A stretch of 63,648 nt of DNA, taken from assembly GCA_902798815.1 (NCBI GenBank), contig CADBYH010000005.1, forward strand, positions 1 through 63,648, written 5' to 3'. A program made the translations under genes and the position numbers. The notes under the pieces were generated by a model, which was not told where the DNA came from, ran no database searches, and saw only the letters and a program-made list of their open reading frames with translations. Of this stretch, positions 42,223 through 61,209 are shown piece by piece. Within the stretch, counting starts at the first letter, position 1. Each line of letters starts with the position of its first letter. The DNA is from an uncultured Erysipelotrichaceae bacterium (lineage in GTDB: Bacteria; Bacillota_I; Bacilli_A; RF39; UBA660).

Positions 42223-42930
42223 CTATTTTAGAACTTTAATTATTTTTGGTTCATCTTCTTCAGTCTTTTTATCAATTAAAACTGAATAAACACTATTATT
42301 CTTTTTAACCTCCACTTTACTTAAAATAGTCGTTTTTGATTCACTAACTACATCACTAGGAATTTCAATATCTTCTGGAACATTAGCAACCTTTTTTCTT
42401 TTAAAACTTGATTTTAATAATTTAATATATGAATGATGTTCATCTTCTTTATCATCAACTATTAAACATATAACAAATAAAATTACTATTAAAGGAATCA
42501 ATACACCATTATTAAAAAGTGTATTTTTAACAATCCCTGTATTAGGAAATATCTTAATAACCTTCCCAACAATTTGATTATCATATATTGGTTCATCAGA
42601 AGTATTATTATGATCTCCTTTAGTTACATAAGTATTTGCATATTGTTGTACAACTCTATGAGTTATAAAATTACCATTTTCTTCATATGTAACAATATCA
42701 TTTAATTTAATATTCTTTGTATTTTTTACTAATATACAATCTCCAACATTAATAGTATTAGTCATACTACCTGTTTTTATCTCAAAAACAGAAAATCCAA
42801 AAAAGGATTTATATGTTTTTTTTAAAAAAGTTGTTTGTATATCTAAAAAGATATTGAAAAAAAGCAAGATGGAAACGCATACAATTGCAAAATCTAAAAT
42901 AATAGTTATAATCTTTTTAAATTTTTTCAT
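42223..42930 (-). CDS. sipW: Signal peptidase I, SipW/SEC11 (ER) type
   Basis: TGSM, VGD, ITHRV (Ser/His), TKGDHN, IVGKV; two TM. Confidence 0.88.
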   Translation of the reverse strand: MKKFKKIITIILDFAIVCVSILLFFNIFLDIQTTFLKKTYKSFFGFSVFEIKTGSMTNTINVGDCILVKNTKNIKLNDIVTYEENGNFITHRVVQQYANTYVTKGDHNNTSDEPIYDNQIVGKVIKIFPNTGIVKNTLFNNGVLIPLIVILFVICLIVDDKEDEHHSYIKLLKSSFKRKKVANVPEDIEIPSDVVSESKTTILSKVEVKKNNSVYSVLIDKKTEEDEPKIIKVLK

Positions 42931-42962
42931 CAATCCACCTTCTCACCTTGTAATATCATTAA

Positions 42963-44123
42963 CTACGAATTCTGACCATTATTCTGTACATTAGAAGTAG
43001 ATTGAACTCCAGCTTGAGAAGCATTATTAATTGGAATAGTTTGACTTATAACTGGAATATCATCAGATGGGCTAGGCACTGTATTTTGTTGTTGAACAAC
43101 ACTTGGTTGTGTTACCTGTTGAGGAGCAACTTGCTGTACTGGTTGTTGAACAACATTTGGTTGTGCTACCTGTTGAGCAACTTGCTGTACTGGTTGTTGA
43201 ACAACGTTTGGTTGTGCCACCTGTTGAGGAGCAACCTGTTGTACTGGTTGTTGAACAACATTTGGTTGTGCTACCTGTTGAGTAACTACCTGTTGTACCG
43301 GTTGTTGTACAACTGCTTGCTGTACCGGTTGCTGTGCAACTGTTGGTTGAGCAACTTGAGTTAAATTAGCATCTGCTCCCATAGGAACTTGTTGTTGAAC
43401 AATTGTAGGTTGAACCTGTAATTGTTGTACTCCTTGTGGAGACACTTGAGAAGCATCAACTGAAACTCCAACAACATTTTGATTTAATTGGGACTTCAAA
43501 TTATTAATTTCGTTCATTAATACGTTGATATTATCAACATTTTCTTTATCACTAGCAGTTCCAGTACCGACACTAGCACCCTCAAGAACAGCTTCATCAG
43601 TATCGAATTTAATTACAATAATTACAGAATAGATTTCATATAATAATAAGAAAAAGCAAGGTACGATAAAAATTACAAAGAATATCCACTTAGACTCTAC
43701 AAATGATATAATTCCACCAATAGAATCATATACTTTAATACTTTGTCCAGCTATATAATCTTGACCCCAAGAAGTATCATCAACATCTAAAGTAATATAT
43801 GGAGTTGCCTCCTCATTATTAACTTCCTTAATCGTTGAAGAAACTACTTTAACAGTCTTCTCTTGCTGACTAGTTTGATAAACAAAAATCTCATCACCAG
43901 CTTTTAGTTTGTCAATAAACCTCTTTTCAACAATTACCAACTGACCCTTTAAATACTTACTAGTATCCTCTTTGACATCAATTAAAGCCTTATTTCCAAA
44001 TTCAGTATAGCCATAATCATTACGACTTAATACCAATGTACTAGCTAAAATAATTATTGAAAGATAAGCAACAAGAATAACACCAAAAACAATATTTCGA
44101 ATTACTCTCAATACCTTCTTCAT
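42963..44123 (-). CDS. Catalytically dead SipW-like protein with Q/V/P-rich tail
   Basis: Aligns to SipW (KLKAGDEIFVY, IAGQ) but GSM absent and THR reads SST; short coiled coil then repeats. Confidence 0.65.
   Translation of the reverse strand: MKKVLRVIRNIVFGVILVAYLSIIILASTLVLSRNDYGYTEFGNKALIDVKEDTSKYLKGQLVIVEKRFIDKLKAGDEIFVYQTSQQEKTVKVVSSTIKEVNNEEATPYITLDVDDTSWGQDYIAGQSIKVYDSIGGIISFVESKWIFFVIFIVPCFFLLLYEIYSVIIVIKFDTDEAVLEGASVGTGTASDKENVDNINVLMNEINNLKSQLNQNVVGVSVDASQVSPQGVQQLQVQPTIVQQQVPMGADANLTQVAQPTVAQQPVQQAVVQQPVQQVVTQQVAQPNVVQQPVQQVAPQQVAQPNVVQQPVQQVAQQVAQPNVVQQPVQQVAPQQVTQPSVVQQQNTVPSPSDDIPVISQTIPINNASQAGVQSTSNVQNNGQNS
43087..43350. repeat. Coding tandem repeats of about 54 bp (QQPVQQVAPQQVAQPNVV)
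   Basis: Visible in DNA and protein; related repeats at about 45650-45815. Confidence 0.85.
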
Positions 44124-44272: not shown

Positions 44273-45598
44273 TTATGTAATTCTAAATGCAGGAGATACA
44301 CCTTGAAAGTAAGTATTACTAGCTGCATAAGGAGAATAAGTACCATTTGTATTTACACATAAAAATGTATCTGAATCATTTTTATTAGCTGTACGAACCC
44401 ACCAAGGTCGTGAAACACTACTACCAGGCTCTTTTTTTTGTACAAAACTAAGATTATTTGATAATGTTACGCCCTTGTAACTATAATAATCTAACTTTTG
44501 TGTCGTCGAAGCTGCAGAATCGTATGAATCACTACCATATATTTCTTTACCGGATAAAAGATAAAGTTTCTCAGTCGATACAAAATTTGTAGAAATACTA
44601 GAACCATGTCCTGAAACAACCCTTGTTTTTGAAATAACATTTTGTAATTCTATAGGAAAATACTCTTCAAAAGAATCTACTTCTTGTTTAACAAGCGAAT
44701 CAGGATATCCATCTTCATTTCCAGAATAATCATCCATATAAAAACTGTAAGATAAAATATCAGCAAATTCCACAACAAACCCACAAGCAGTTTGAGAATA
44801 AGTAGAATTACTACAACTTGAAGGAGTAGTTTTATTAGCCAATCTCAATACATGTGTATAATCATTATTATTAAAATGCATAACAATAGACTTAGTATCA
44901 CCAACATGATATTTACTAGTATCACCCTTCTCAACTGCTAGTTCAATAGTATCCCAAGAATCATTAGCAAATGAAACAGTATTATCAACATATTGACTAA
45001 CTACAATTTCTATTTTAAGTTCCAATCCAGATCTTATTTGATAAGAACTATTTTGATTATGAAGTTGCTGTTCACTTTGATAAAAATTATACGCCATTTG
45101 ACCATATTGAGTATCCAGCTCATCATTACCAGAATCAAAAGGCCAAGTACATGAAACACCAAAATTACTAGTTGAATCAGCCGCTAAATATCTAGAACCA
45201 TGAGTAAATTCTAATTTAAACGGATAATCTCTTGCCAATTGTGCAAATGAAATACCATTTGTTGTAGTTACTTCAGTATTAAAAAGTCTAAAATACTTAA
45301 TATTATAAGTAATCTTTGCTGGAATATCACCATTATTATGAATTACATAATCTTCTTGAAAATCTGTCATACCTGGGGAAAGATTATTAATAGTAATATC
45401 AAAAACATTACTAACTTCAGTATTATTCTTTGTTATCTTAATATCCCAAGTCTTTAAATTAACATTCATATTAGATGTAACAGTATTTGTATATGCAAAC
45501 CATGCCAAAGTAATTGACATAATTGACACAGCAAAAAAGGCAATAGATGTTAAGTTTACTTTCGTAAACTTACTTTTTATTCTATCACTTAATTTCAT
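44273..45598 (-). CDS. SipW-class exported protein: TasA-like N-domain plus DUF6273-like C-domain (adhesin candidate)
   Basis: TLAWF; NLSPG, IHNNGDIP; C-domain DSWDTI, KLYLLSGKEI, WWVRT, GVSPAFRI. Confidence 0.65.
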   Translation of the reverse strand: MKLSDRIKSKFTKVNLTSIAFFAVSIMSITLAWFAYTNTVTSNMNVNLKTWDIKITKNNTEVSNVFDITINNLSPGMTDFQEDYVIHNNGDIPAKITYNIKYFRLFNTEVTTTNGISFAQLARDYPFKLEFTHGSRYLAADSTSNFGVSCTWPFDSGNDELDTQYGQMAYNFYQSEQQLHNQNSSYQIRSGLELKIEIVVSQYVDNTVSFANDSWDTIELAVEKGDTSKYHVGDTKSIVMHFNNNDYTHVLRLANKTTPSSCSNSTYSQTACGFVVEFADILSYSFYMDDYSGNEDGYPDSLVKQEVDSFEEYFPIELQNVISKTRVVSGHGSSISTNFVSTEKLYLLSGKEIYGSDSYDSAASTTQKLDYYSYKGVTLSNNLSFVQKKEPGSSVSRPWWVRTANKNDSDTFLCVNTNGTYSPYAASNTYFQGVSPAFRIT

Positions 45599-45625: not shown

Positions 45626-46510
45626 TTATTGATTATTTGAATTTACAACTTGAGTTGCTTGTTGTGCAGGTTGCTGAACAACATTAGGTTGTTGTACTAC
45701 CTGTTGAGCAGTAACCTGTTGAACCGGTTGTTGAACAACTGCCTGCTGTACTGGTTGTTGAACAACACCTGGTTGCACTGCTTGCTGAGTAACCACTTGT
45801 TGTACTGGTTGTTGAGTTTGTTGATTTATAATTTGTTGTTGCAAATTAACAATCTCTTGTTGTAGTTGTTCTTGCGTAACACTTGCTGATTGTGTAGGTG
45901 CAACATCTGGTTGAACCGCCATATTATTAACACTTGCATCTGTAACACCTTCTTGTGCAACTGTATTTAAATTATTTTTACGTTCATATTTTTCAATCAT
46001 TGTTTGTACAACTTCTGTTCCAATTAATAACATTATTGGAATAATCACAAAGAAGAAAAATCCTATATTACTAGTTGAATAACTATGAAAAGCCGATAAT
46101 ACAACAAGTTTTCTAGAAACTTTTCCATATATCTGATTTGCAACTATTGGTGGGTCTGCACTACTAGAAGCAATACCTTTAGTTTGAAAAATCTTTTCAT
46201 CCTTACTATCATCTATCTTTATAATTCTATGTGTTATTACCTTATCTTTAAATGATCCTTCTTTACCAAGATAAGTAATATCATCCCCTACCTTTAAAGT
46301 ATCAGTATTGACATCCTTACACAATAAAACATCACCTATTTGATACTTAGGTTCCATAGATCCAGTAACAACAGCAAACATTCTATATCCAAAAATAGAT
46401 TTATTATTCTTAGAGAATCTTTGAAAAAGTACAAAAGAAACAAACAGTAAAATAACAACTATAAAAACTGTCTTAATAACTGTTAAGAAAATCTTTAAAA
46501 ACTTATTCAT
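45626..46510 (-). CDS. sipW: Signal peptidase I, SipW type, with Q/V/P-rich tail
   Basis: TGSMEP, IGD, ITHRI, TKG, IYGKV; start overlaps upstream gene end. Confidence 0.88.
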   Translation of the reverse strand: MNKFLKIFLTVIKTVFIVVILLFVSFVLFQRFSKNNKSIFGYRMFAVVTGSMEPKYQIGDVLLCKDVNTDTLKVGDDITYLGKEGSFKDKVITHRIIKIDDSKDEKIFQTKGIASSSADPPIVANQIYGKVSRKLVVLSAFHSYSTSNIGFFFFVIIPIMLLIGTEVVQTMIEKYERKNNLNTVAQEGVTDASVNNMAVQPDVAPTQSASVTQEQLQQEIVNLQQQIINQQTQQPVQQVVTQQAVQPGVVQQPVQQAVVQQPVQQVTAQQVVQQPNVVQQPAQQATQVVNSNNQ

Positions 46511-47750
46511 CAGTTTCATCTCCTTTACTATCATCATTCTCTGATGTTGTTTCTATCTTACTTACATCAATACTCTTTTCATCTTCCTTAACCTCTTCAG
46601 GAACTTCCATATTTAAAATTGCCCCATCAGAACCAATTTGGAAGAAACTAGAGTCCATTTTTTCCATAAATTTCTTTGAATTACTATTAATCTTATTAGC
46701 AATAAATGAATAATCTACTACTTTTTCTTTTCTTACCATATCATATTCAGAAGCAACTAAATCAATTAAATCCTCCCTAGATAAATCATCATCACCTTTA
46801 GCAATATGTCTAATATTTTCTTTGATATCCTTTAATAGTAATTTATTTAATTCTTTTGTATACATTTCTTTATAATAATTATTCTTTGTACAAGTACACA
46901 TCATCATATAATAAAAACATAAGAAAGTATTATTCACTTTATCATTAAATACATTAGGTAATTCATTATAAACATCTCTATTATTTTCAACACTTTCAGC
47001 ATCAATCTTAAAATTATGAATAAAATCCCATAAATTAGCAGCCATCTGAAAGTTAGGATTCTTTAAAATAACATTAGTTCTTTTAATTGGATCAGTAACT
47101 GCCGGAGCCTTTTCCTTCTTTAATTGCTTATAAAGCATACTCTCTCTCCAAGATTTTACATTATTCATAACAATTTCTGATTTTTGTAAAAATTCATCAA
47201 TACCAGGTAATCTATCAGTTTTAGACTCTACTAAAAAACTAAATTTAATATCTTCTGCATCAACATTAGTCTTACCATTAAATGTAAAAGAATTTGTATT
47301 ATTAGTATCGTGACTATTAAGTTGATTATTAATATCCTCTAAAAATATTGCCAACTCATCAACAAGAGTACATATAAATCTATTTTCATAAGTATTAAAT
47401 GTATCCTCTTTATAAGTATTCAATAATTTTGAAGGTCTTATTTTATTTTTTTCTTCATCATACTCTTGAATAAAATTAGTATGTTTCGCAAGATGTTTAA
47501 ATGTAGGAGGTCCAACTTTTCTAACCTTCTCTATTTTTAATATCTCTTCTTCTTCTTTTAAGAAGGATTTTAAATCATTAAATATATTATTTATATATGG
47601 AATAATTCCAAAAATAAAATCAAACCAATCAAAACTAACTATTAAACCAGTATAATCTTGAGATAATAATTCTTTTTGACTTAAATTTTTGAAAAATTTC
47701 TCATTAAAAACATCTGACTGGTTTTCATATTGTATAGAATAATTCTCCAT
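46503..47750 (-). CDS. DUF2357 (McrC-like N-terminal) domain protein, no evident nuclease domain
   Basis: HLAKHTNFI, NTYENRF, RTNVILKNPNF; follows McrB-like gene; C-terminus helical/acidic. Confidence 0.65.
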   Translation of the reverse strand: MENYSIQYENQSDVFNEKFFKNLSQKELLSQDYTGLIVSFDWFDFIFGIIPYINNIFNDLKSFLKEEEEILKIEKVRKVGPPTFKHLAKHTNFIQEYDEEKNKIRPSKLLNTYKEDTFNTYENRFICTLVDELAIFLEDINNQLNSHDTNNTNSFTFNGKTNVDAEDIKFSFLVESKTDRLPGIDEFLQKSEIVMNNVKSWRESMLYKQLKKEKAPAVTDPIKRTNVILKNPNFQMAANLWDFIHNFKIDAESVENNRDVYNELPNVFNDKVNNTFLCFYYMMMCTCTKNNYYKEMYTKELNKLLLKDIKENIRHIAKGDDDLSREDLIDLVASEYDMVRKEKVVDYSFIANKINSNSKKFMEKMDSSFFQIGSDGAILNMEVPEEVKEDEKSIDVSKIETTSENDDSKGDETDE

Positions 47751-47764
47751 ATTATTTACCTATT

Positions 47765-49324
47765 TTAACCTTTCTTCAACATACTAACGTAATCAATACA
47801 TTCCTTCATTTTATCTTTTCCAAATAATCTATTTAATTCCTCAATAAATGGATCAATAGCATCACGTATATAAGCTATATTTTGTTGCTCCAATTTTCTT
47901 AAAATCTTTTTAGCAACAAAGTAATCTATTCCACCAGTTTCATCTCCACCACAAGCAACATATACTGGAACAAATATCTTTAACTGTTTCATAATACGGT
48001 TACCAAAAGAGATTTTAAAATTTGTAATCATAAAATTATCCACTGTAGCAAGATTCTTTAAACCTTTTTCTGAAACAGGAAAATCTTCACAAGCCTTTTT
48101 AAATAAAGATTCCAAATAAACAGAGTTTAAATCTAATGCTTCTTGATTTCGACAATCAAATGGATCTATTTTTGTATTAATATCGATAGGCATAGCTCTA
48201 TCGTAAACTTTATCTGTAACAGCAAAAGTAGAATCATCGTTATTGATTGTACCTATATACCATACATTACCATTAAGTCTTATCTTACCATTATTTAATT
48301 TAACTGGATCGTTATCAACTGTATTAGTAACTAAAGCAACATTCCACTCAGCTCTATTAGGCATTTCAAGTATAGATAATACTTCTGCGAAATAATACTC
48401 AACACGAGCAAGATTCATTTCATCTAGTACTATTGTATGACATCTATCATCATATAAAGCACTATATAATTCAACAAGTGCACCTGTTTCATTAAATCTC
48501 TTTGTAAACTCGTTAATATACCCAAAAAAGTCTGTCCTATCACGCCAAGATGGCTGAACAGATGAAATACATGGATCAGACTTATTAAACTTACTCCAAG
48601 CATATGCTAAAGATGTTTTACCTGTACCAGAAATACCTTGGAATATTAACATCTTACCACAAGCTAATCCACCAAAGAACACTCTTAATAAATCTTCATT
48701 GTAATATAGATGTAACTGACTTGCTGAAAAACATCTAAAATCATCAATCAATTCAGGAAGAGTCTGTGTATTATTATAATTAACAATTTTAGTCTTTTTA
48801 TTTAATTTATCAATACGATACAATTGAGGAAATCTAATATCTTCATCCAATACATTATCCTCTTCCTCAACAACTTCTCCATCTGTTCCTTCAGTAGGAA
48901 CATCTTGAGATACGGTACCATCTGCATTTATTTTACCATTATTAGAATTAGGAGTAATACCTGAATATATTTCAGCTATTTTCTCGTTTTCCTTAACCAA
49001 TCCCTCTACTTGATCATTTAATGAATTAATTTCTTCAAGCAAAGACTCTTGATTTACCAATTTCTTTTTTAATAAGAAATATTTTCTAAATATATATTGC
49101 AAAATATAGAATATTAATCCAATTATTAATAATAAAACTACTCCTAAAATAACCACAAGAACCCACTCATTAATGTGTAATTCTTTTGAATAGAAATCAA
49201 TTATCTTTTTATAATTACTAAACGAGAAAATAGTTACTAAACCACTAAATAATCCCTTAAAAACAGCACCAACTCCAGTAAACAATATAGATAAAACTTC
49301 ATATAAAAAACGTAGTACTGTCAT
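47765..49324 (-). CDS. Membrane-anchored McrB-like AAA+ NTPase
   Basis: N-terminal hydrophobic helices and coiled coil; GISGTGKT, VQPSW, LDEMNLARVEYYF, GTINNDD, KVYDRA. Confidence 0.82.
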   Translation of the reverse strand: MTVLRFLYEVLSILFTGVGAVFKGLFSGLVTIFSFSNYKKIIDFYSKELHINEWVLVVILGVVLLLIIGLIFYILQYIFRKYFLLKKKLVNQESLLEEINSLNDQVEGLVKENEKIAEIYSGITPNSNNGKINADGTVSQDVPTEGTDGEVVEEEDNVLDEDIRFPQLYRIDKLNKKTKIVNYNNTQTLPELIDDFRCFSASQLHLYYNEDLLRVFFGGLACGKMLIFQGISGTGKTSLAYAWSKFNKSDPCISSVQPSWRDRTDFFGYINEFTKRFNETGALVELYSALYDDRCHTIVLDEMNLARVEYYFAEVLSILEMPNRAEWNVALVTNTVDNDPVKLNNGKIRLNGNVWYIGTINNDDSTFAVTDKVYDRAMPIDINTKIDPFDCRNQEALDLNSVYLESLFKKACEDFPVSEKGLKNLATVDNFMITNFKISFGNRIMKQLKIFVPVYVACGGDETGGIDYFVAKKILRKLEQQNIAYIRDAIDPFIEELNRLFGKDKMKECIDYVSMLKKG

Positions 49325-51363
49325 AATTTAATCACCTCGCTACTAATAGGTTCAGAAATACAATAAGTATTATTAATCAAATCTTTAGGAACAAAACTTT
49401 CAATTTCTTTTTTGTTTTCATCTCCAACAACAAAGATATATTCTCCCATTTCTAAAATATTTCTATCAAATTCTGCATTCATCAATGTACTTTTTTGTAT
49501 CTGAATAATAAAATTGAATCCACTATTCTTAAATTTATTTAATTTATTTTTATATTTTTTTAATACATCATCATCTATAGATATTAAAATCTTCTTTTGA
49601 GAAAAAGGATCATTAAAATTATCTATAAAAGAATTAATCTTTCTATCTTTACTATATAAACTATCATTAAGATGAACAATATATCTCTTTTTATAGTTTT
49701 CTTCAAAAAGTTCATTTATTAATGTTGAACCAATTAGTTTTAAAGAAACCTCTTGTAAGTTTTCTAAAACAACAGACTGACTATATGACTTATCTATAAT
49801 ATATTCACTAAATATTTTACTAAATTTTATATTTGATTTAATCTGAGTATTATAAAGATCATCAACTATAGTATCACTAACAACAAGTTTAAATATTTTT
49901 GAAGATGATATCTTTTCAATAAATGATTTTCTTAATTTAGTATAGTTATTACCTTTTTCAACAATACAATTTACAATTAATTTTTTATCTTGATCTGTTT
50001 CAAAAGAAACAACATCTCCAATTAACTTATTCAAATTACTATAGTTATCATCTAATTTATTATAAAACAACAATAAATCTGTTATTTCTCTCTTTTGATT
50101 TACATCTAAATTTCTCTTTTTTGAAGCATATTTTTTTATTTTTTCTTCTAGTATTTCATTCTTCTTACTATAATCTTCATCACTATAATCAACTGGTTGA
50201 ATAAATCTATCAGTTACATAAGAAGAAATAATTTTTTTTAATACAGAAGCAGGATACTCCTTACCTTGAGCATCACATATAATAGTCAATATTTCAAATA
50301 TTTCATATTGTTTTAACTCTAATATTTTTAAAACAAAGTTTTTAGTACCTTTACCAATTATAGTAGGTTGCCCACCTTCATTTTTATCATTACCAATTGC
50401 TTCTAGTACCTCATTACTTGCCTCTTCTTCTTCATTACTTTCAGTATTCTCTCCTTCTTCCTTTTTTTCTTCTTTTTTCTCTTCTTTTTTAATATCAGTA
50501 TCAATTACAATTGTACTTAATTTAGTTTCAATAACATCTGCTGCAGTATTATTTTTTAATTCATCATCAGCAATATTAATATTTGGAACAACAATAATAG
50601 GATCCTCATAAACAATATTTTCTTCTGGTATTTCTTTATTTTCTTCTAATTGTTCTACAGTACTAGCATCAGTATTTTCAACAGGAATATCTTCTTGTTT
50701 TTCAATATTACTTTGCTCATTTGTATCTTGTGCAACCACATTCTGTTCTTGTACATTAGGTACAGAAACCTCATGTACAGGTTGAACAACCACATTAGTT
50801 TCAACATCATCTAATATTTCTATATTCTTATCTTTTTTAGAATTCATACGTCTTTTTAAGAAATCAAAGAATTCCACAAAAAATAGAATAACAATTGGTA
50901 TAATCAATAAGATAAATAGTATTAATCCAGACTGCATAATATATAATAAATAACCCAATTTATGAAATACACTTCCTCTAATTCCTAGTAATTCATCTGA
51001 AATCCAATGACGATTATCATTCTTTAATGTTATATATCCAGGATCAGCATCTAATTTAACCTTTTCTACTTTTGAATTAATAACATTAATGTTCTTTGAA
51101 TTAATTATTTCTTCATAAACAAACACATCATCATTAACTTTTACTTTATTAAGATCAATCTTCTTTATTACTATTAAATCCCCATCATTATATCCCTTAG
51201 TTTTAGATTTTTTACAATTACTAAAATAATAATTGTTTTTTGTTTCAATTAATCCATATTTATTTCTAAAAACTAATAATAGAGAGAATAAATACAATGC
51301 AAATATATACAATAAAATTAGTACTATTACTAATACTTTTCTAAGAACTATTCTTATTTTCAT
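49321..51363 (-). CDS. Dead SipW-like domain + acidic linker + degenerate EAL-like C-terminal domain
   Basis: GDLIVIKK...KVNDDVFVY without GSM/THR; C-terminal YIVHL..KILISI..KFKNSGFNFII..EYIFV follows EAL barrel spacing without EAL/DDFGTG. Confidence 0.5.
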   Translation of the reverse strand: MKIRIVLRKVLVIVLILLYIFALYLFSLLLVFRNKYGLIETKNNYYFSNCKKSKTKGYNDGDLIVIKKIDLNKVKVNDDVFVYEEIINSKNINVINSKVEKVKLDADPGYITLKNDNRHWISDELLGIRGSVFHKLGYLLYIMQSGLILFILLIIPIVILFFVEFFDFLKRRMNSKKDKNIEILDDVETNVVVQPVHEVSVPNVQEQNVVAQDTNEQSNIEKQEDIPVENTDASTVEQLEENKEIPEENIVYEDPIIVVPNINIADDELKNNTAADVIETKLSTIVIDTDIKKEEKKEEKKEEGENTESNEEEEASNEVLEAIGNDKNEGGQPTIIGKGTKNFVLKILELKQYEIFEILTIICDAQGKEYPASVLKKIISSYVTDRFIQPVDYSDEDYSKKNEILEEKIKKYASKKRNLDVNQKREITDLLLFYNKLDDNYSNLNKLIGDVVSFETDQDKKLIVNCIVEKGNNYTKLRKSFIEKISSSKIFKLVVSDTIVDDLYNTQIKSNIKFSKIFSEYIIDKSYSQSVVLENLQEVSLKLIGSTLINELFEENYKKRYIVHLNDSLYSKDRKINSFIDNFNDPFSQKKILISIDDDVLKKYKNKLNKFKNSGFNFIIQIQKSTLMNAEFDRNILEMGEYIFVVGDENKKEIESFVPKDLINNTYCISEPISSEVIKL

Positions 51364-51435
51364 ATACTCACATCCTCTCTCCAATTATAAAAAAATTATA
51401 CCATATTTATTTCTTTCAAATCAATAAATCAAATA

Positions 51436-52068
51436 CTATATCTGCCTAAATGTAAAACTAACATTTATATTGTAATTAACACCTTGATTATTAGCTACTT
51501 TCTCTCCTATCAATGTATCAGATGTATTTGTCGACGTACTATTATAATTATCTATCCATTGAAAATAAAATCTAAGATAAATATTAGTATGTGTTCCACT
51601 AGCAGGTAGAATTTTATTATTATTAAAAGTTTTTGAATCAGGATACAAACCTGATGAAACAAATGATACACTAGGAGTTGTAGTATTAGTTATTGTATTC
51701 GCACTAATTCTATAACCTAATACTTTTAAATTATCTATTTCACCAGTCTTTTCAACTGTAACTTCATAATTAAATGACGTTTTTATATTAGAACAATCTA
51801 TAAAAACATCAAAATAACCCTTACATCCAGGAGCAAGTTTACCAGTATTAACATTAGTACAACTATTTACCACAGGAGTAAAAGATAAATTAATCGTATT
51901 ATTAGTCGTAATATCAGTATTATTAAGTAAAATTCTCCACTTAGTCATATCTGCTCCAACTTCTCCAGAAGAACTAGAAACATATTTTGCATAACTAGAA
52001 TTAAGATTGGACAACAAAACAAAGATAGATAAAACTAGTATAAATATTTTTAGTTCAATATTCTTCAT
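51436..52068 (-). CDS. SipW-class exported TasA-like minor subunit
   Basis: SYAKY signal end, KLAPG, C-terminal F-x-Q strand. Confidence 0.65.
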   Translation of the reverse strand: MKNIELKIFILVLSIFVLLSNLNSSYAKYVSSSSGEVGADMTKWRILLNNTDITTNNTINLSFTPVVNSCTNVNTGKLAPGCKGYFDVFIDCSNIKTSFNYEVTVEKTGEIDNLKVLGYRISANTITNTTTPSVSFVSSGLYPDSKTFNNNKILPASGTHTNIYLRFYFQWIDNYNSTSTNTSDTLIGEKVANNQGVNYNINVSFTFRQI

Positions 52069-52133
52069 CTTATCACCCTATCATAATTATACAGCAAAAA
52101 AAAAGACAGTTCAATAATTGAACTAATCTTTTA

Positions 52134-52949
52134 TTAATTAGATACAGATATCGCATCTTGACATGAAATACTACTATTCTTATATACACTTAAATAGTTT
52201 GATGTATATACAGGTAAATTTATAGTTTTTGTAGTTCTCAAACTATCACAAAATCTTACATTTGTATTTGCTGTAACTAATTGTATAGAACTATAATTCT
52301 CATCATAATTTGTTATAGTATATTTACAACTATTATCTCTCTCAGCAATTGTATTTATAACAACACCAGACTTAGAAGAATCAAAGGTTATATCATATAA
52401 TGTAGTAAATTCTTTTTTATATGGACTAGTTGTTGTAATATTAATTTGAACAAAAACATGCTTTTTTGTAGAAAGTTTTTTCACTTTTAAATTATGAACA
52501 TTATACCTTTTATTATATGTAATAGTACAAGTAGAAGAAGCCTCACATTGTTCTTCTGTCATATTAGCAGGTGATGTTGTAAATGATTTATTAAGAGAAA
52601 CATTTTGTACACCATCTAAAGTATCATCAATATAACATTCAAAATTATTATCAACATCATCAACTATACACTCTATATCATATGTAATATTAGTCTTACT
52701 AATTTGGAAATCACTTTCATAATTATACACTTTAAATGGAATACTATTCCCATCATAATTACTATTTGTATGTGAAAATCTCATCTCACTATCAAAATAA
52801 AATGCTGTTGAACTATAATTGTAGTTATAAGAATTACTTTTTGCAAAAAGAGCACGAGAATATTTAAAAAATATTATTATCAAACTTAAAACAAATATTG
52901 ATATAACTGATAAAAATATAGTATATTTTATATTTTTTAATAAACTCAT
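52134..52949 (-). CDS. SipW-class exported protein, Cys-containing
   Basis: SRALF signal end; AFYFDS; operon with neighbours. Confidence 0.55.
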   Translation of the reverse strand: MSLLKNIKYTIFLSVISIFVLSLIIIFFKYSRALFAKSNSYNYNYSSTAFYFDSEMRFSHTNSNYDGNSIPFKVYNYESDFQISKTNITYDIECIVDDVDNNFECYIDDTLDGVQNVSLNKSFTTSPANMTEEQCEASSTCTITYNKRYNVHNLKVKKLSTKKHVFVQINITTTSPYKKEFTTLYDITFDSSKSGVVINTIAERDNSCKYTITNYDENYSSIQLVTANTNVRFCDSLRTTKTINLPVYTSNYLSVYKNSSISCQDAISVSN

Positions 52950-52965
52950 TTTATATACACTCCTT

Positions 52966-53499
52966 TTATGTTGATTGAATAGACTCTATTCTTAAAGTAA
53001 CAGTATCTATATTATTTGAATAATTATAACCAAATACATCTCCACTTGAATTAGTAGAAGGAAAACTTACTTTTAATGTATAACTACGCGTGATATTACT
53101 TGTATAATTCATTGTAATATATGATGAAGAACATGAAATATCAACAGTTCCAGAACACGTTAACAAATTTGTAGTGTTAGAACCTAAAACAATACTATAC
53201 TGTAATGGTAATGAATAAGAATTAACGAAAAACTTATATTTTATTTTTACATCACTTCTATTACTTGCATTAGCATTAGTAACTTGAAAATTAAATTGCT
53301 TAACAGTACCCGGTTTCATATCCTTAATATCAAAACTCAATGTATCTGTTAATTGATCATTAAAAACAAACCTTGCTAAAGGAATAGATGAAACGCTTCC
53401 ATGAGTAGTACTTTTATACATAGCATAACTACCATTTATTACATAAAATAAAGAACATAAAACAATAATAAATAATAAATATCTAATTTTTCTTTTCAT
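52966..53499 (-). CDS. SipW-class exported TasA-like minor subunit
   Basis: SYAMY, DMKPG, FQVTN, terminal ESIQ. Confidence 0.65.
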   Translation of the reverse strand: MKRKIRYLLFIIVLCSLFYVINGSYAMYKSTTHGSVSSIPLARFVFNDQLTDTLSFDIKDMKPGTVKQFNFQVTNANASNRSDVKIKYKFFVNSYSLPLQYSIVLGSNTTNLLTCSGTVDISCSSSYITMNYTSNITRSYTLKVSFPSTNSSGDVFGYNYSNNIDTVTLRIESIQST

Positions 53500-53513
53500 T
53501 GAATCACTTCCAG

Positions 53514-56500
53514 TTATTTTACAATAATATTATAATTCTCTTCAGCAAGTCTTCCAGAATTAGTTTCTAAGAAAAACTTTATATTATATGATCCAGGACT
53601 AATATTACTCTTTAAATTTAAATCTGTATAATAATTTACATTTTGTGAACCAGTAATTGTTTTAAAAGAATAATAATTACCACTTATATTAGTAAAACTA
53701 TTAGTAAATAATTGACTAGGTGCCACACTTTGAGTTGATGTTTGACTAACAAGCTTATTAACAATCATAGAAATTTTCTTACTCGAAAAACTTCCCTTGT
53801 ATTTATAATTTAATCTAATTCTGCTATTATTTAAAGATGTTTTTCCAGTACTACCATTAATAATTCGATCTCCATCAGCAATACTTGTACTAAACCCAAT
53901 ACCATTAATACCATTACAATAATTATTTGTGACTGTTACTGTATCAGTTGCTAATACAGTTCCTGCATAATTACAAACTTTAAAAACTAAATTGTAATCA
54001 CCATTTAAACAATCAATAAAATAACTATAAATATATTGATCTAATTCTATAGAATCATTTGCTCTATATTGAGATCCATAATTATAAAAATATGGCTTAT
54101 AAACTATATTTACTTTATTATTACTATTAAAAGAATAATCATCTTCATAACCATTATTATTATCATAAAATAGTTCAAACTTACCATGAAATAACTGTGA
54201 TAGATTTTCATTGTTTGGGCCAAGTAATTCTACTTTTAATATATAATCATTATTGCCAATATCAGGACCATATTTTTGCTTAACATTACCATATGAACTA
54301 TAGGATTTAGCAGTTTTCTCAAAAACTACATCGAAATAAAAATGTGCATAGTTATCAGGCCCAACTAAAGAAATAGAATCACCATCATCCTCTTCACTTA
54401 CATCAAGATTATAACTTATATGTGAAAAACTATTATACACGCTATATGCAAAGTAAGAAGCACCTTCATATTCAGAAACACCACTAGCAACAGCAACAAG
54501 TTCAGGTTCAATATATATAGGAAAATCATCATCATCAACATCAGAAAAATCAAAAGAAATTTTATAATTTTCATTTAATACACCATTACTATGATGACTA
54601 GAAACTTTATTATCATAAGCAGTATTATTAACAATAGATCTAAAATTAGCTAAATTATATACATAATATGTATCATCATCACTATTAGTATTAGCTGTTG
54701 GTGTAGAATTGACTGTATACATATAAGTTTGATCATAAAAATCATCATAAAGTACTATTTTTGTATCAATAGGTAATGGTTCTTCATATATATATAGATT
54801 TGTTCTTGCAGAAGTAGAATACCAACTAGAATAAATACTTACATCCATTTGATGAGTACAATTAAAATTTAAAACTGAATCCTTAGTAACTTGTTGTCCA
54901 TCATAAAAATCAAGTGGATAATCATTTATTCCTTCAGTAAAACTTGTTTCATATCCATCATAAACAATTAAATCAGAATTCGCATACGTAACATTTCCAT
55001 AAACATCAGTTGCTTTAACAAATATCGTTTTACAATCATTTAATTCTATATTAAGATTCGAACCATCATAAAATGAATATTGAAAAGTATTATAACCACT
55101 ATATGAATTTGAAAATCCATCTCTTATATAATACTCAATTTTTGCCAAATCTTTGTTATCATTTGCATTTATTATAACAGCGGTATCTGATGTAAGTCTA
55201 ACTCTTGAAATTGAATTTAATCCAGTCCAAGAATTTGAACCAATAACAATTGAAACAGTTGGAGAAGTATAATCATCATAATATAATACAGGTGGAAGTG
55301 AAGTCCTATATGTCCAGACATATCCATTTTGAACAGTTCCCCCTGAACCATATTTGTCAAAACCCATTGTAGATTGTATATGAGTCTGTGAAGTAAGAGT
55401 TGAATATGATACAGATGATATTCCTGCACTAGAAGCATTAGAATTACTTATATTCCCTATAGGATTACCACTACCACTAGTATAATAAATCTTAGTCCCA
55501 TTAAAAAACTGAGAAAAAGTATAACTAGATAATAATTTTACATAACCAGCTATTCTTCCACTAAAAGCACTAGTATTTTTCTGTAAATCAAAACACTTTG
55601 ATATATATAACCTATTAGCACCTTGTCTAATAAAACCAAATAATCCTCCAGAATATCTCGGACAACGTATTTCTGCATAATTATATGATAAAGTAAACTC
55701 CTTTAGTGAACAATAAGTACTTAATGAACCTACCAAACCTCCTGCATTATCAGTTGAGATAATAGTTGCTAAATTATATATTCTTCTTATAACACATACC
55801 ATACTATCAGGACAAGTGTTACCTAATATTAAACCAATAGACACCCTACCAAATACACCACCAACTGAATTATCACCAACTATTTTTCCCCTAATTACAA
55901 TATTTTCAATAGTACCACAATTTTCAAAACATCCAATAAATCCTGTTTTATCCTCATGAGAATACTCTTTATATGACAAATTTGTAAATGTAACATTACT
56001 TGAAACAGGTGTAACAGTAATGGTACTAACATGATTAGATAATTCAATTGAAAAAGCACCTGAACTATATGTATTACCACCATATTTGAATGATGCACTA
56101 GCAGTACCACTTACAACATATTTATAATATGGTTCCTCAGCATAAACAGGATTACTACCACCATTCAGATTAATTACATTTTGCGAAGGTGAAGAAGCAG
56201 ATCCATTGTAAGTATAATCAACATTTTGATTCTTAATAAAACCCGAAAAAACAATATCTTTAACTGTATTACCAGTTGCAGTACTAGTATATGAATAACC
56301 AACAACACCTAAATAAGATGCACATCCAGAAATATAAGTATTCAAAAATCTAACATTTTGTACTGTTGCATCCTGAATTATTTTAAAAAAACCATATTCA
56401 TCATAGTATGTGTTACTATAATAAAATAAACCATTAATAGTTTTTCCATTACCATTAAAATTACCAGTAAAAGTAAAATCAGTCCTTGGTAATTGATTTA

Positions 56501-58732: not shown

Positions 58733-59767
58733 TTATTTATATCCAGCTGTATCCTTCTCAAAATCTATTTTAAAAATAAGTCTATATCCAGGTGAATCTG
58801 TTTTAATTATATCTATATCTTCCCCTTCAATCCACAAATATATTCTAAATTTTGAAATCCCTGAAGGTAATTCAAAAACAGAATTATCTAAATTTGTAAT
58901 TGTATTTTGGAAAGAAAATATATTACTATCAAATGCCACATTAGAATTATATACACCTGACCATAAATTTATTTTTTCTCCTTCATTATATATACCATAG
59001 GTAGGAACAACAGAATTATTTGTAATATTAATATTACGTCTTTTTAAAAATTCTATACTTCCATCATTATGAGTTGTATCTGCCTCATAAATAAATTGTT
59101 TACAATCTCCTACATTACAATTAATACTTTGTATTTCTCCTAGTGAGGATTTTTTATCAACTGTTCCAACATAAACCATTCCAAATCGAATTGCCTTTAA
59201 AATGAATTCATCATCTTCAGTTTCTGGAACAAATAAATTTTTCTCATTTCTTATATATAAATTATCATTAAATGGTGACCCTGTATTATTTCTTATAAAA
59301 ATATCAAACGCAAAATAATTTGAATTTAAAACAGGTTTACTCTCATCAGATAATTTAGGATAAATATATTCATTACTTGCTAAACCACCAGTACGAGAAA
59401 AAGGTCTTTTGTTTTCATAAACAGAAAATTTATAACCATTGTTTAATAATCCAACTGTAGAAACTGGTGACATATATTCAGACCATCTATTAGTATTACC
59501 AGGATAAAGATTATTTAAATCATTTATCAAAGTATTCTTAGAAATATTAATACTTTGTTGCCAATTTTCTCCATCCAAAGAAATAGCTAAATCTGAATCA
59601 TGATCTACATGTACATTAAATCCATAGATTTGTACATTTAATGATGATGAAAACCAAGCATATGTTGAATATATTAATACAACTCCCGTAATAAGAGTAA
59701 GGAATAATATAAGATAAAACCTTATATCATTCCTTTTATTTTTCAAAAAACTATTATTTTTTTTCAT
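58733..59767 (-). CDS. SipW-class exported fibre subunit, paralog 4 (most divergent)
   Basis: TYAWF, ISLDG, FDIFIRN, KFRIYLWIEGED, FEKD. Confidence 0.68.
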   Translation of the reverse strand: MKKNNSFLKNKRNDIRFYLILFLTLITGVVLIYSTYAWFSSSLNVQIYGFNVHVDHDSDLAISLDGENWQQSINISKNTLINDLNNLYPGNTNRWSEYMSPVSTVGLLNNGYKFSVYENKRPFSRTGGLASNEYIYPKLSDESKPVLNSNYFAFDIFIRNNTGSPFNDNLYIRNEKNLFVPETEDDEFILKAIRFGMVYVGTVDKKSSLGEIQSINCNVGDCKQFIYEADTTHNDGSIEFLKRRNINITNNSVVPTYGIYNEGEKINLWSGVYNSNVAFDSNIFSFQNTITNLDNSVFELPSGISKFRIYLWIEGEDIDIIKTDSPGYRLIFKIDFEKDTAGYK

Positions 59768-59795
59768 AGTTTTATAAACCTATCTTCTTTTACAA

Positions 59796-61172: not shown

Positions 61173-61209
61173 TTTTACACCACCTTAATCAATATGAACA
61201 ATCAAATTA

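What the first reader, a model, noticed from the sequence alone, without database searches (positions are those of the whole stretch)
46503..49324. McrBC-like pair apparently repurposed: membrane-anchored NTPase and nuclease-less partner inside a secretion operon
Seen: overlaps couple dead-SipW/EAL to the NTPase (ATGA 49321-49324) and DUF2357 to active SipW (46503-46510), with a 14-bp gap between the pair; the NTPase N-terminus is TM + coiled coil rather than a DNA-reading domain; no PD-(D/E)xK motif recognisable in the partner. Known: McrB hexamers are stimulated by McrC inserted in the pore. Inference: a defence-derived motor recruited to fibre assembly, retraction or regulation; a membrane-sensing defence role is the alternative.
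Basis: partly seen in the sequence, partly recalled or inferred. Interest (0 to 1): 0.85.

Follow-up and report, generated by a model that had tools for sequence, protein, structure and literature searches.

The report
McrBC-derived GTPase pair in fibre operon
A membrane-anchored relative of the McrB restriction GTPase and a nuclease-less McrC-like partner sit inside a conserved operon for secreted TasA-like fibres in an uncultured ruminant-gut bacterium; this kind of system was named CoCoPALM in 2024 but has never been tested, and here it appears tied to a cyclic-di-GMP-type sensor domain.

Summary

The interpretation (a restriction-derived motor recruited to fibre biogenesis) is supported by conserved gene order. 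SipW genes flank the pair in 14 of 15 close loci, 19 of 20 loci from other families and 7 of 8 loci of a 4-TM sister clade. No nuclease domain was found.

It is not new as a kind. Bell et al. 2024 (eLife, PMC11090510) named NxD-motif, FtsB-like-anchored McrB GTPases linked to signal peptidases "CoCoPALM" and left them unexplored.

I found three things that their main text does not mention:
- Canonical GGDEF-EAL genes lie beside the operon in 13 of 20 loci from other families.
- A conserved family of pseudo-SipW proteins accompanies the system.

Function remains inferred. I read it as a member of a named but uncharacterised class, with a testable c-di-GMP link.

The parts
47765..49324 (-). 519-aa membrane-anchored McrB-type AAA+ NTPase of the NxD branch
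   Evidence: NCBIfam McrB E 5.7e-7. PDB McrB chains E 7e-6. PADLOC PDC-M26A E 6.2e-30. Single copy in the genome. Invariant Walker A, Walker B and NxD residues in 35 aligned sequences.
49091..49165 (-). Transmembrane segment of the NTPase, about residues 54-78. The positive cluster RKYFLLKKK on its C-side places the AAA+ domain in the cytoplasm (inference from the positive-inside rule).
   Evidence: Hydropathy scan: residues 54-72, mean Kyte-Doolittle value 3.31. Flanking sequences printed.
48953..49057 (-). Short heptad-repeat (coiled-coil-like) stalk, residues 90-124
   Evidence: The eight best 28-residue heptad windows of the whole protein start at residues 90-97; 27 of 2000 shuffles reach the observed score. 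Pfam DivIC/FtsB matches residues 71-113 at only E 0.087. A stricter first scan that forbade Gly found nothing.
48614..48637 (-). Walker A, GISGTGKT (residues 230-237)
   Evidence: G230, G233, G235, K236 and T237 are invariant.
48413..48433 (-). Walker B, IVLDEMN (residues 298-304)
   Evidence: D301 and N304 are invariant. It aligns to the DEIN of E. coli McrB.
48227..48253 (-). McrB signature in its shortened NxD form, GTINNDDST (residues 358-366)
   Evidence: [GA][TS]xNxDxST occurs in 142 of 151 relatives, and D or E follows the NxD in 139. N361 and D363 are invariant. This matches the definition of the NxD branch in PMC11090510.
46503..47750 (-). 415-aa McrC-like partner: a DUF2357 (McrC N-terminal) domain plus a helical C-terminal region, with no nuclease
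47298..47594 (-). Stretch matched by Pfam DUF2357 (residues 53-151)
49321..51384 (-). 687-aa protein: pseudo-SipW membrane domain, acidic linker, helical domain, EAL-like domain. Translationally coupled to the NTPase. The real start may be the ATG seven codons in (MKIRIV...).
50857..51360 (-). Pseudo-SipW domain (about residues 9-176), lacking the Ser-Met and His boxes
   Evidence: Its best matches are the pseudo-SipW paralogs (window gene 42963-44123, E 2e-18) rather than active SipWs.
49351..49905 (-). EAL-like fold (residues 494-678 of the 687-aa protein), degenerate in sequence
45626..46510 (-). Intact SipW-type signal peptidase with a roughly 100-residue Q/V/P-rich C-terminal tail. Overlaps the partner's stop by 8 bp.
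   Evidence: TIGR02228 E 2.5e-25, 89.2 bits against a 51.85-bit cut-off. GSM and THR boxes present. Junction shown.
44273..45598 (-). 441-aa DUF6273 protein with a SipW-type N-terminus (LAWF). It is the conserved gene after SipW.
   Evidence: Pfam PF19789 E 3e-9. Present after SipW in all 15 close loci except L025; L025 has no DUF6273-like ORF listed.
42223..42933 (-). Second intact SipW (236 aa). It is most like the SipW domain that is fused to the EAL-like domain in sibling genomes.
   Evidence: TIGR02228 E 1.4e-19. 42-52% identity to the N-termini of the fusion proteins. GSM and THR boxes present.
42963..44123 (-). 386-aa protein whose N-terminal 164 residues are a second pseudo-SipW domain
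   Evidence: hhalign against the SipW alignment: probability 97.6, E 2.7e-12. Catalytic boxes absent.
51436..56924 (-). Four genes (210, 271, 177 and 1136 aa) for proteins with an N-terminal anchor followed by SYAKY, SYAMY or SYARY. Presumed SipW substrates (minor fibre or tip subunits).
   Evidence: Translations. Homologs occupy the same positions in sibling loci.
56940..58553 (-). 537-aa soluble protein of unknown family, conserved at the head of the cluster
   Evidence: No Pfam family. Homologs in L014-L017, L020, L032 and L058.
58733..63648 (-). Four TasA-like paralogs (344, 458, 391 and at least 362 aa; the last runs off the window end) with TYAWF-type N-termini. Presumed major fibre subunits.
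   Evidence: Translations. Homologs in related loci carry xTFAWF or xTYAWF motifs. Terminator-like hairpins lie at 59699-59735 and 62532-62561.

Best explanation
The two genes are the McrB-like and McrC-like core of a CoCoPALM-type system. This is a descendant of McrBC restriction enzymes that has lost both its DNA reader and its nuclease, and that works at the cytoplasmic face of the membrane together with SipW-type signal peptidases in making or controlling TasA-like surface fibres.

Proposed working:
1. The NTPase is held in the membrane by its N-terminal helix and a short coiled-coil stalk, and forms an AAA+ ring.
2. The DUF2357 partner inserts into the ring and stimulates GTP hydrolysis, as McrC does for McrB.
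3. The EAL-like protein encoded just upstream is tethered to a pseudo-SipW membrane domain. It serves as a sensor or adaptor, probably for c-di-GMP, that couples the motor to the peptidase and pseudo-peptidase platform.
4. Processing, release or polymerisation of fibre subunits is thereby switched or driven from the cytoplasm.

Shown here: the homologies, the intact nucleotide-binding motifs, the absence of any recognisable nuclease, the EAL-like fold and the conserved gene order.

Inferred: ring formation, stimulation by the partner, GTP as the nucleotide, c-di-GMP binding, physical contact with SipW, and which step of fibre biogenesis is affected.
For: Identity of the pair:
- McrB similarity and motifs.
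- DUF2357 match and McrC-like fold of the partner's N-terminal part.

No nuclease recognised.

Translational coupling.

Conserved order, (pseudo-SipW)-(SipW and/or EAL-like)-NTPase-DUF2357-SipW-DUF6273:
- 14 of 15 close loci from the same family have a SipW hit.
- SipW genes are on one or both sides in 19 of 20 loci from 11 other families, together with TasA-like xTFAWF proteins.
- SipW is directly upstream in 7 of 8 loci of the 4-TM sister clade.
- In the tree, the 1-2 TM SipW-linked NTPases form one clade (SH-aLRT 99) and the SipW-free forms are nested in it.

Phyletic pattern unlike a sporadic defence gene, among high-quality genomes of the class: f19 7/7, f29 11/11, f20 20/22, f13 24/30, f10 20/25, against f5 0/38, f12 0/22, f22 0/21. 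The NTPase is 50-59% identical across genera.

c-di-GMP link:
- EAL-like fold of the upstream protein.
- Canonical GGDEF-EAL genes beside the operon in 13 of 20 loci from 8 families.
- In genome G477 the only 2 EAL genes are these two.
- A GGDEF-EAL gene lies 13 bp upstream of a second NTPase paralog in G414.
- The window's own genome has 2 GGDEF matches.

Published precedent for the class: PMC11090510, section 7, read in full.
Against: - No experiment exists for any member; the only description is three sentences.
- In the window's own order the NTPase was found in only 51 of 150 high-quality genomes, while SipW-type peptidases were found in 145 of 150. Most SipW systems there run without it, so it cannot be a core assembly factor.
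- Five close loci (44-47% identity) keep the EAL-like/NTPase/DUF2357 trio but have no adjacent SipW. The same is true of the tandem copies in L077 and the 10-11 TM forms in L126 and L127.
- The nearest curated profile is a candidate defence protein, PADLOC PDC-M26A.
- The EAL-like domain has no Pfam match and no conserved catalytic or binding residues, so ligand binding is a guess.
- Similarity of the stalk to FtsB/DivIC is insignificant (E 0.087).
- My crude scan found no coiled coil in the window's McrC-like protein, although the class 'usually' has one.
Confidence: 0.6

Rival explanations
1. It is still an anti-phage defence system. A membrane-anchored McrBC-type sensor would detect infection at the envelope, or guard the fibre (a likely phage receptor), and respond by shutting down or remodelling fibre export or by membrane damage rather than by cutting DNA.
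For: - Ancestry in Type IV restriction.
- The best curated hit is a candidate defence protein, PADLOC PDC-M26A, E 6.2e-30.
- Patchy presence in the window's own order: 51 of 150 high-quality genomes, 34 of 86 genera.
- Two or three paralogs in many genomes.
- Nuclease-less McrC homologs also occur in the CoCoNuT systems, which are predicted to be defensive.
Against: - No nuclease, HEPN domain or other effector was recognised in or next to the pair. The PADLOC scan of the partner, the 687-aa protein and the 537-aa protein returned nothing.
- Neighbours are secreted-fibre genes, peptidases, c-di-GMP enzymes or an ABC transporter, not restriction, methylase or mobile-element genes.
- Near-universal presence in five of the 30 families tallied.
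- High conservation of the NTPase.
Confidence: 0.2
2. It is a regulatory or quality-control module rather than an assembly motor. The ring would extract, unfold or hold uncleaved fibre precursors or the (pseudo-)SipW proteins themselves, in the manner of an AAA+ membrane-protein remodeller, so as to time fibre display in response to c-di-GMP.
For: - The motor is dispensable for most SipW systems of the order: 51 against 145 of 150 genomes.
- Fusion of the EAL-like domain to SipW or pseudo-SipW domains in 8 loci (the window, L013-L017, L032, L058).
- Conserved pseudo-peptidases that could bind but not cut signal peptides.
- GGDEF-EAL neighbours.
Against: - McrB-family rings are not known to thread proteins; their pore is occupied by McrC (PMC11090510, passages seen).
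- No substrate-recognition domain was identified.
- This reading overlaps the best explanation and differs only in which step is acted on.
Confidence: 0.15
3. The adjacency is a historical accident. A McrBC-like cassette inserted once into a fibre operon and has been inherited with it without any functional link.
For: - Kin share gene order by descent.
- All the loci examined come from one bacterial class.
Against: - The link survives extensive rearrangement: SipW on one or both sides, fused or unfused EAL-like domain, 1-2 TM and 4-TM anchors, McrC homologs of 360-900 aa.
- Overlapping stop and start codons.
- Fusion of the third component to SipW domains.
- Loss of DNA-binding and nuclease parts.
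Confidence: 0.05

Closest known systems
[quoted passage not shown] I read section 7 in full and passages elsewhere; the supplements are closed.
   Same: - NxD-type McrB GTPase with an N-terminal transmembrane helix and coiled coil.
- A DUF2357 McrC homolog.
- Tight association with signal-peptidase-family genes taken to be pilus assembly factors.
- Found in Bacillota.
   Different: - The window's McrC homolog is short (415 aa, against 500-900 aa in other families), and my crude scan found no coiled coil in it.
- The similarity of the stalk to FtsB is insignificant.
- An EAL-like third component is fused to a pseudo-SipW domain. GGDEF-EAL neighbours and pseudo-peptidases are not mentioned in that paper's main text; Supplementary file 1, which I could not open, may list them.
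E. coli / Thermococcus McrBC Type IV restriction enzyme (PDB 6ut6, 6hz4, 6ut5)
   Same: - The AAA+ core with Walker A, Walker B (DExN) and the asparagine-aspartate signature.
- A partner with the McrC N-terminal domain encoded next to it.
   Different: - No DNA-reading N-terminal domain; a TM helix and stalk stand in its place.
- The signature is shortened to NxD.
- The partner lacks the PD-(D/E)xK nuclease.
- The neighbours are fibre genes, not restriction-modification genes.
CoCoNuT systems (same paper)
   Same: - The NxD branch of McrB.
- Coiled-coil fusions.
- McrC homologs that often lack an active nuclease.
   Different: CoCoNuTs are said always to carry HEPN or other nucleases nearby and RNA-binding domains. 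None was recognised here.
FimX and LapD: degenerate EAL-domain c-di-GMP receptors that control pilus assembly or adhesin release (PDB 4ag0, 4fou, 3pjt)
   Same: - It sits next to an NTPase of a surface-fibre system.
- Like LapD, it is tethered to the membrane beside a protease-type protein.
   Different: - No sequence-level relationship.
- Only about 175 of about 240 EAL residues align.
- c-di-GMP binding is untested.
- The partner NTPase is of McrB type, not a PilB-type secretion ATPase.
Bacillus subtilis tapA-sipW-tasA and Clostridium perfringens sipW-bsaA fibre operons (B. subtilis recalled from general knowledge; for C. perfringens only listings and abstracts were seen)
   Same: A SipW-type peptidase is encoded with its TasA-like substrates, which carry the typical aromatic-Ala-x-aromatic N-terminal motif.
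   Different: Those operons have no NTPase, no McrC-like gene, no pseudo-SipW and no EAL-like component. The cluster here spans more than 25 kb, with two intact SipW-type genes, two degenerate SipW-like domains and about ten presumed substrates.

Membership tests
McrB-type AAA+ GTPase, NxD branch | Significant sequence similarity to McrB GTPase domains | tested here: met
   NF008457 E 5.7e-7, well below the equivalog cut-off, so not an McrB ortholog. PDB McrB chains E 7e-6 to 1.5e-5 over residues 175-394. Pfam AAA_5 only at E 0.11.
McrB-type AAA+ GTPase, NxD branch | Walker A, Walker B (DExN) and an Asn-x-Asp signature, usually followed by D or E | tested here: met
   GISGTGKT, LDEMN and GTINNDDST are present. 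N361 and D363 are invariant in 35 sequences. The motif occurs in 142 of 151 relatives, and D or E follows in 139. The definition was read.
McrB-type AAA+ GTPase, NxD branch | Hexameric ring; GTP-specific hydrolysis stimulated by the McrC partner | not testable with these tools
   Needs biochemistry or a structure.
McrC (DUF2357 + PD-(D/E)xK nuclease) | N-terminal DUF2357 domain | tested here: met
   [not shown]
McrC (DUF2357 + PD-(D/E)xK nuclease) | C-terminal PD-(D/E)xK nuclease domain with catalytic D, D/E and K | tested here: not met
   No Pfam nuclease family in the protein or in the 120 best homologs. No invariant residue after W241. Residues 262-366 are modelled as four helices, at pLDDT mostly 56-89. 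No nuclease appears among the fold matches, but the tool warns that the C-terminal part is barely tested.
CoCoPALM | McrB GTPase fused to an FtsB-like transmembrane plus coiled-coil domain | tested here: inconclusive
   A TM helix and a heptad-repeat segment are present. Homology to FtsB/DivIC is not shown: PF04977 E 0.087.
CoCoPALM | Association with signal-peptidase-family genes | tested here: met
   Intact SipW overlaps the partner's stop. There is a second SipW and two pseudo-SipW domains in the cluster. The association is conserved in 14/15, 19/20 and 7/8 related loci.
CoCoPALM | Coiled coil fused to the McrC homolog ('usually') | tested here: inconclusive
   A crude heptad scan flagged nothing in the window's 415-aa partner, but flagged segments in 4 of 4 long homologs tested, from L062, L064, L066 and L071. 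No dedicated predictor was available.
Canonical McrBC Type IV restriction system | N-terminal modified-DNA-binding domain on McrB and an active nuclease on McrC | tested here: not met
   The N-terminus is a TM helix and stalk. There is no nuclease.
EAL domain (PF00563), for the C-terminus of the 687-aa protein | EAL fold | tested here: met
   [not shown]
EAL domain (PF00563), for the C-terminus of the 687-aa protein | Sequence match to the family and conserved metal and c-di-GMP-binding residues | tested here: not met
   No Pfam EAL hit even at E <= 10. A profile search against PDB found nothing. There is no invariant column in 23 aligned sequences.
SipW / ER-type signal peptidase (TIGR02228), for the N-terminus of the 687-aa protein | Catalytic Ser (GSM box) and His (THR box) | tested here: not met
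   The boxes read KKS/KSK (depending on the alignment) and NSK, while 16 of 17 aligned sequences keep His. TIGR02228 scores 16.7 bits against a 51.85-bit cut-off. That these boxes hold the catalytic residues is recalled from the literature on SipW and Sec11, not taken from a call.
PADLOC candidate defence system PDC-M26 | Presence of the system's component proteins | tested here: inconclusive
   Only the A component matches, and only over its AAA+ core (residues 205-323). The partner, the 687-aa protein and the 537-aa protein match nothing in PADLOC. The composition of PDC-M26 was not looked up.

The most novel reading that the evidence does not exclude
TasA-type fibres are thought to assemble outside the cell without any nucleotide-driven machine. 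In a large group of gut Bacilli they would instead be governed by a GTP-driven, McrBC-derived membrane motor that reads c-di-GMP through a degenerate EAL domain tethered to a (pseudo-)signal peptidase. That would be an independent, restriction-enzyme-derived counterpart of the FimX/PilB or LapD logic, and a clear case of a defence motor being turned to cell-surface biogenesis.
Probability: 0.3. Interest if true: 0.85.

Novelty: new member of a known kind. Interest (0 to 1): 0.5.

Why it matters
McrBC is a textbook restriction enzyme. A branch of it that has shed both DNA recognition and the nuclease, and has become welded to signal peptidases and fibre genes, would show how a defence motor is re-used for cell-surface biology.

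The class has a name but no data. This locus and its relatives are widespread: near-universal in five of the 30 families tallied among small-genome gut and rumen Bacilli, and present in ruminant gut metagenomes from many studies.

They also offer concrete handles:
- a three-gene core (EAL-like protein, GTPase, McrC-like protein);
- a recurrent c-di-GMP connection;
- conserved pseudo-peptidases.

If the link is functional, it would add a nucleotide-driven, second-messenger-controlled step to TasA-type fibre and biofilm-matrix formation, for which no such step is known. It would also give a first function for the NxD variant of the McrB GTPase.

Tried and rejected
- **Foldseek, whole McrC-like model against PDB:** no match at E <= 0.001; the top rows were kinesins with TM 0.1. 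I took this as uninformative for an extended multi-domain model (pTM 0.48).
- **Sequence and profile searches against PDB:** nothing significant for the partner or for the EAL-like protein.
- **Homolog search with the EAL-like part alone:** 3 proteins, two of them fragments. The alignment therefore had to be built from fetched loci.
- **hhalign, G414 GGDEF-EAL protein against the EAL-like alignment:** no relationship (E 0.38). No sequence bridge from canonical EAL to this domain was obtained.
- **Complex prediction, NTPase residues 80-519 with the EAL-like protein:** 'no answer', score 0.00 in both runs. This is neither for nor against binding.
- **First coiled-coil scan (no Gly or Pro allowed):** nothing in the NTPase. 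A second scan allowing Gly placed the best heptad windows at residues 90-124. Both are home-made scores, not a validated predictor.
- **Promoter and terminator scan:** 168 promoter-like sites against 152 +/- 12 in shuffles, and 4 terminator-like sites against 2.8 +/- 1.7, so not informative. No terminator-like site was listed between 43800 and 58135.
- **Expression:** no listed holder is on record as RNA. Two runs whose library text says METATRANSCRIPTOMIC are flagged 'probably DNA'. Their short contigs cover parts of all four genes, and single contigs cross the DUF2357/NTPase junction and the NTPase/687-aa junction. I draw no conclusion on expression from them.
- **SipW co-occurrence as a test of coupling:** rejected, because SipW is near-universal in the order (145 of 150).
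- **Other genetic code or a frameshift:** considered and dropped. All frames are open under table 11, and no insertions or deletions were seen in four metagenome runs.

Full report
**Setting.**

The window has about 25% G+C, and nearly all its genes lie on the minus strand. It is contig C5 of a 1.45-Mb, 52-contig genome bin rated 75.7% complete.

Its nearest named relatives are uncultured 'Erysipelotrichaceae' rumen MAGs (87-88% identity for the NTPase), 'Bacilli bacterium' gut MAGs, and Clostridium sp. CAG:567 and CAG:609. Near-identical DNA is held in bovine and goat gut metagenomes from about a dozen studies.

**The observation.**

- The 687-aa ORF (49321-51384) and the 519-aa NTPase (47765-49324) share ATGA.
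- The NTPase and the 415-aa partner (46503-47750) are 14 bp apart.
- The partner's stop lies 8 bp inside the SipW gene if SipW starts at the ATG at 46510, which has an AAGGAG 9 bp upstream.

The NTPase:

- It matches McrB weakly but specifically: NF008457 E 5.7e-7; PDB McrB chains E about 7e-6 over residues 175-394.
- It keeps Walker A (GISGTGKT), Walker B (LDEMN) and the family signature, all invariant in a 35-sequence alignment.
- Its N-terminus has one strong hydrophobic helix (residues 54-72) followed by RKYFLLKKK. By the positive-inside rule this puts the AAA+ domain in the cytoplasm.
- Next comes a stretch (residues 90-124) that holds the best heptad periodicity of the whole protein.

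The partner is DUF2357 and nothing else.

**No nuclease.**

- Of the partner's 120 best homologs, 119 carry PF09823, one carries no Pfam family, and none carries any other family.
- In a 32-sequence alignment the invariant residues stop at W241.
- The AlphaFold model (pLDDT 74) shows four helices from residue 262 to 366.

**What it belongs to.**

The signature reads GT-I-N-N-D-D-ST. Among the query and its 150 best 50%-identity representatives:

- 142 of 151 have [GA][TS]xNxDxST.
- In 139 of these the next residue is D or E.

This is exactly the 'NxD, usually followed by E or a second D' variant that Bell, Makarova, Wolf and Koonin use to define a major branch of McrB GTPases (PMC11090510, section 7, read in full).

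[quoted passage not shown] It names them CoCoPALM and defers them to a forthcoming paper.

A full-text search for the name found only that paper and its preprint. Searches for McrB with SipW, and for McrB with signal peptidase and pilus, found nothing else relevant.

The finding is therefore a member of a named but uncharacterised class.

**Neighbourhoods.**

I fetched 20-kb stretches around 20 homologs from the window's own family, 20 from eleven other families of the class and 10 around more distant forms.

*Same family, 15 loci at 47-55% identity.* The order is: small SipW-signal proteins, pseudo-SipW, (SipW-)EAL-like protein, NTPase, DUF2357, SipW, DUF6273.

- A SipW hit was found in 14 of the 15; L023 has an unannotated 520-bp gap where SipW would be.
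- Five further loci at 44-47% identity keep the upstream protein, the NTPase and DUF2357. They are followed by a membrane protein of about 420 aa (558 aa in L027), which in L024 is Asp-rich, and lie among housekeeping genes with no adjacent SipW.

*Other families.* 19 of 20 loci have SipW genes on one or both sides of the pair, plus TasA-like genes with xTFAWF N-termini. The exception is L077, with tandem NTPases.

*More distant forms.*

- A sister clade has a 4-TM anchor. SipW lies directly upstream in 7 of 8 loci, and an ABC transporter lies downstream.
- Two forms with 10-11 TM segments have a DUF2357 partner but no SipW.

*Tree of the AAA+ domains.* The method was quick IQ-TREE with SH-aLRT support only, and the rooting is insecure because the outgroup is not one clade.

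- The 1-2 TM forms are a clade (support 99).
- The window's family is a clade (97) that includes the SipW-free trio loci.
- The window sits with the seven loci whose upstream gene is a SipW/EAL-like fusion (100).
- The window has a long end branch: 0.53, against 0.14-0.30 for its siblings.

**Distribution.**

- In the window's order the NTPase was found in 51 of 150 high-quality genomes (34 of 86 genera).
- SipW-type peptidases were found in 145 of 150, usually in several copies.
- Across the class, 151 of 381 high-quality genomes have the NTPase at E <= 1e-20. The split by family is sharp: f19 7/7, f29 11/11, f20 20/22, f13 24/30, f10 20/25, f8 20/40, against f5 0/38, f12 0/22 and f22 0/21.
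- Many genomes have two or three copies.

So the system is an accessory to SipW fibre systems in the window's order, but close to a fixed trait in five of the 30 families tallied.

**The third component.**

The protein upstream of the NTPase is conserved in position and weakly in sequence. It is free-standing (300-380 aa) in 13 loci. It is fused behind a SipW-type membrane domain in 8 loci: the window, L013-L017, L032 and L058.

- Folded with a 23-row alignment it gives a confident model (pLDDT 88.7, pTM 0.85).
- By sequence it is not recognisable as EAL, and it has no invariant residue. It is most likely non-catalytic.

**A c-di-GMP theme.**

In the other families, where no such protein is present, the operon is instead bordered by canonical GGDEF-EAL genes.

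- Typically there is a pair: one of about 850 aa with two TM segments and one of about 475 aa with one TM segment. In L062 they score EAL 6e-63 and 9e-59.
- Local BLAST found such genes in 13 of 20 loci from 8 families. The 7 without are L058, L065, L071-L073, L076 and L077; two of these are cut by contig ends.
- Whole-genome counts show this is not background. G477 has 2 EAL genes in all, and both are these. For G203 it is 2 of 4, for G318 2 of 5, for G426 2 of 10 and for G414 2 of 8.
- In G414 a further, weaker GGDEF-EAL gene lies 13 bp upstream of a second NTPase/DUF2357 pair, in the same position as the EAL-like gene of the window.
- The window's genome has two GGDEF matches and no Pfam EAL match (the bin is incomplete).

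The main text of PMC11090510 contains none of the words c-di-GMP, EAL, GGDEF, diguanylate, TasA or SipW. A search for McrBC with c-di-GMP and EAL domain returned 18 papers, of which the listing shows 17; none has McrBC in its title or abstract, and I opened none.

**Pseudo-peptidases.**

- The SipW-like N-terminus of the 687-aa protein lacks the His box (NSK for THR) and the Ser-Met box. The seven orthologous fusions keep both.
- Its best matches are not active SipWs. They are a family of SipW-like proteins of about 180 aa that lack both boxes in all 11 loci examined, together with the N-terminus of the window's 386-aa gene at 42963-44123.
- In sibling loci such a pseudo-SipW gene lies just upstream of the SipW/EAL-like fusion. 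In the window that separate gene is missing, and the EAL-like part is joined to a pseudo-SipW domain.
- A stand-alone SipW most like the fusions' SipW domain lies at 42223-42933. A deletion that fused the two genes is a plausible history, but this is inference.

**Mechanism.**

The evidence shows a three-gene cytoplasm-facing module (EAL-like protein, NxD GTPase, McrC-N-like protein). It is welded by overlaps, fusions and conserved order to membrane peptidases and pseudo-peptidases and to their secreted TasA-like substrates.

By analogy with solved McrBC complexes I infer a ring whose hydrolysis is triggered by the partner. By analogy with FimX and LapD I infer a second-messenger input.

Which step is acted on (precursor processing, release, polymerisation, or timing) cannot be told from sequence.

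A defence role is the main rival. It rests on ancestry, on the PADLOC PDC-M26A hit and on the patchy presence in the window's order. It is weakened by the lack of any effector and by the gene company the pair keeps.

**Limits.**

- All context comes from one class. Kin are not independent, so the locus counts overstate the number of independent observations.
- ORFs in fetched loci were called by a simple longest-ORF rule and labelled with profiles built from the window's own operon.
- TM and coiled-coil calls come from home-made scans.
- The complex prediction gave no answer.
- No RNA evidence could be secured.

Noticed in passing
window 42963-44123 (-); L013:6582-7121, L014:6558-7082, L015:12859-13413 and others: A conserved family of SipW-like proteins lacks the catalytic Ser-Met and His boxes ('pseudo-SipW'). 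They are about 180 aa when free-standing. They occur in all 11 sibling loci examined, and twice in the window, as the N-termini of the 386-aa and 687-aa proteins.
   Followed up: partly
L061-L064, L066, L069, L070, L074, L075 (e.g. L062:1224-5227): Other families of the class have a conserved tandem of membrane GGDEF-EAL proteins (about 850 aa and about 475 aa) directly beside the SipW-NTPase-DUF2357-SipW operon. In genome G477 these are the only two EAL genes.
   Followed up: partly
L118-L125 (e.g. L118:7732-17894): A sister system has this order: a 3-TM SipW-like gene, a 4-TM McrB-like NTPase (about 610 aa), a protein of about 450 aa with a C-terminal zinc-ribbon-like match, an ABC ATPase, an 11-12 TM permease, a protein of about 810 aa, and a protein with a Listeria-Bacteroides repeat. 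It is preceded by small proteins with a TGFAAW motif.
   Followed up: partly
L126:8080-12326, L127:7872-12147: McrB-like NTPases of about 900 aa have 10-11 predicted TM segments, each with a DUF2357 partner of about 515 aa. No SipW lies within 20 kb.
   Followed up: no
L128:5235-9918 (G414): A second paralogous set in one genome: a degenerate GGDEF-EAL protein (455 aa), 13 bp upstream of an NTPase (512 aa) and a DUF2357 protein (587 aa). It lies next to a 2664-aa ORF and an S9 peptidase.
   Followed up: partly
window 45626-45940 (-), C-terminal third of SipW: The intact SipW carries a roughly 100-residue low-complexity tail rich in Q, V and P (QQPVQQ-type repeats) after its second membrane segment. 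The SipWs of sibling loci lack it.
   Followed up: no
window 38211-38903 (-): A SigB/F/G-type sigma factor gene (TIGR02980 E 1.3e-45, below cut-off) lies at the downstream end of the fibre cluster. It might be the cluster's dedicated regulator.
   Followed up: no
L024:6933-8204 and the equivalent genes in L026-L029: In the SipW-free trio loci the gene after DUF2357 encodes a membrane protein of about 420 aa (558 aa in L027). In L024, the only one whose sequence was printed, it has Asp-rich DxDxDG-like repeats (calcium-binding look) and a C-terminal beta-rich part. The two scanned (L024, L026) match no Pfam family.
   Followed up: no
L077:6356-12278 (G233, a 3.3-Mb genome): Two nearly identical NTPase copies flank one DUF2357 gene. 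A third, weaker NTPase-like ORF lies upstream. There is no SipW nearby.
   Followed up: no
window 47765-49324 (-): The window's NTPase has a much longer end branch (0.53) than its seven nearest relatives (0.14-0.30) in the tree. In this same lineage the EAL-like domain is joined to a pseudo-SipW rather than to an active SipW.
   Followed up: no
window 50390-50500 (-), linker of the 687-aa protein: The acidic and lysine-rich linker (KKEEKKEEKKEE...) is a hotspot of contig breaks, loose ends and small rearrangements in all four metagenome runs laid. It is probably a repeat-length polymorphism or an assembly problem.
   Followed up: no
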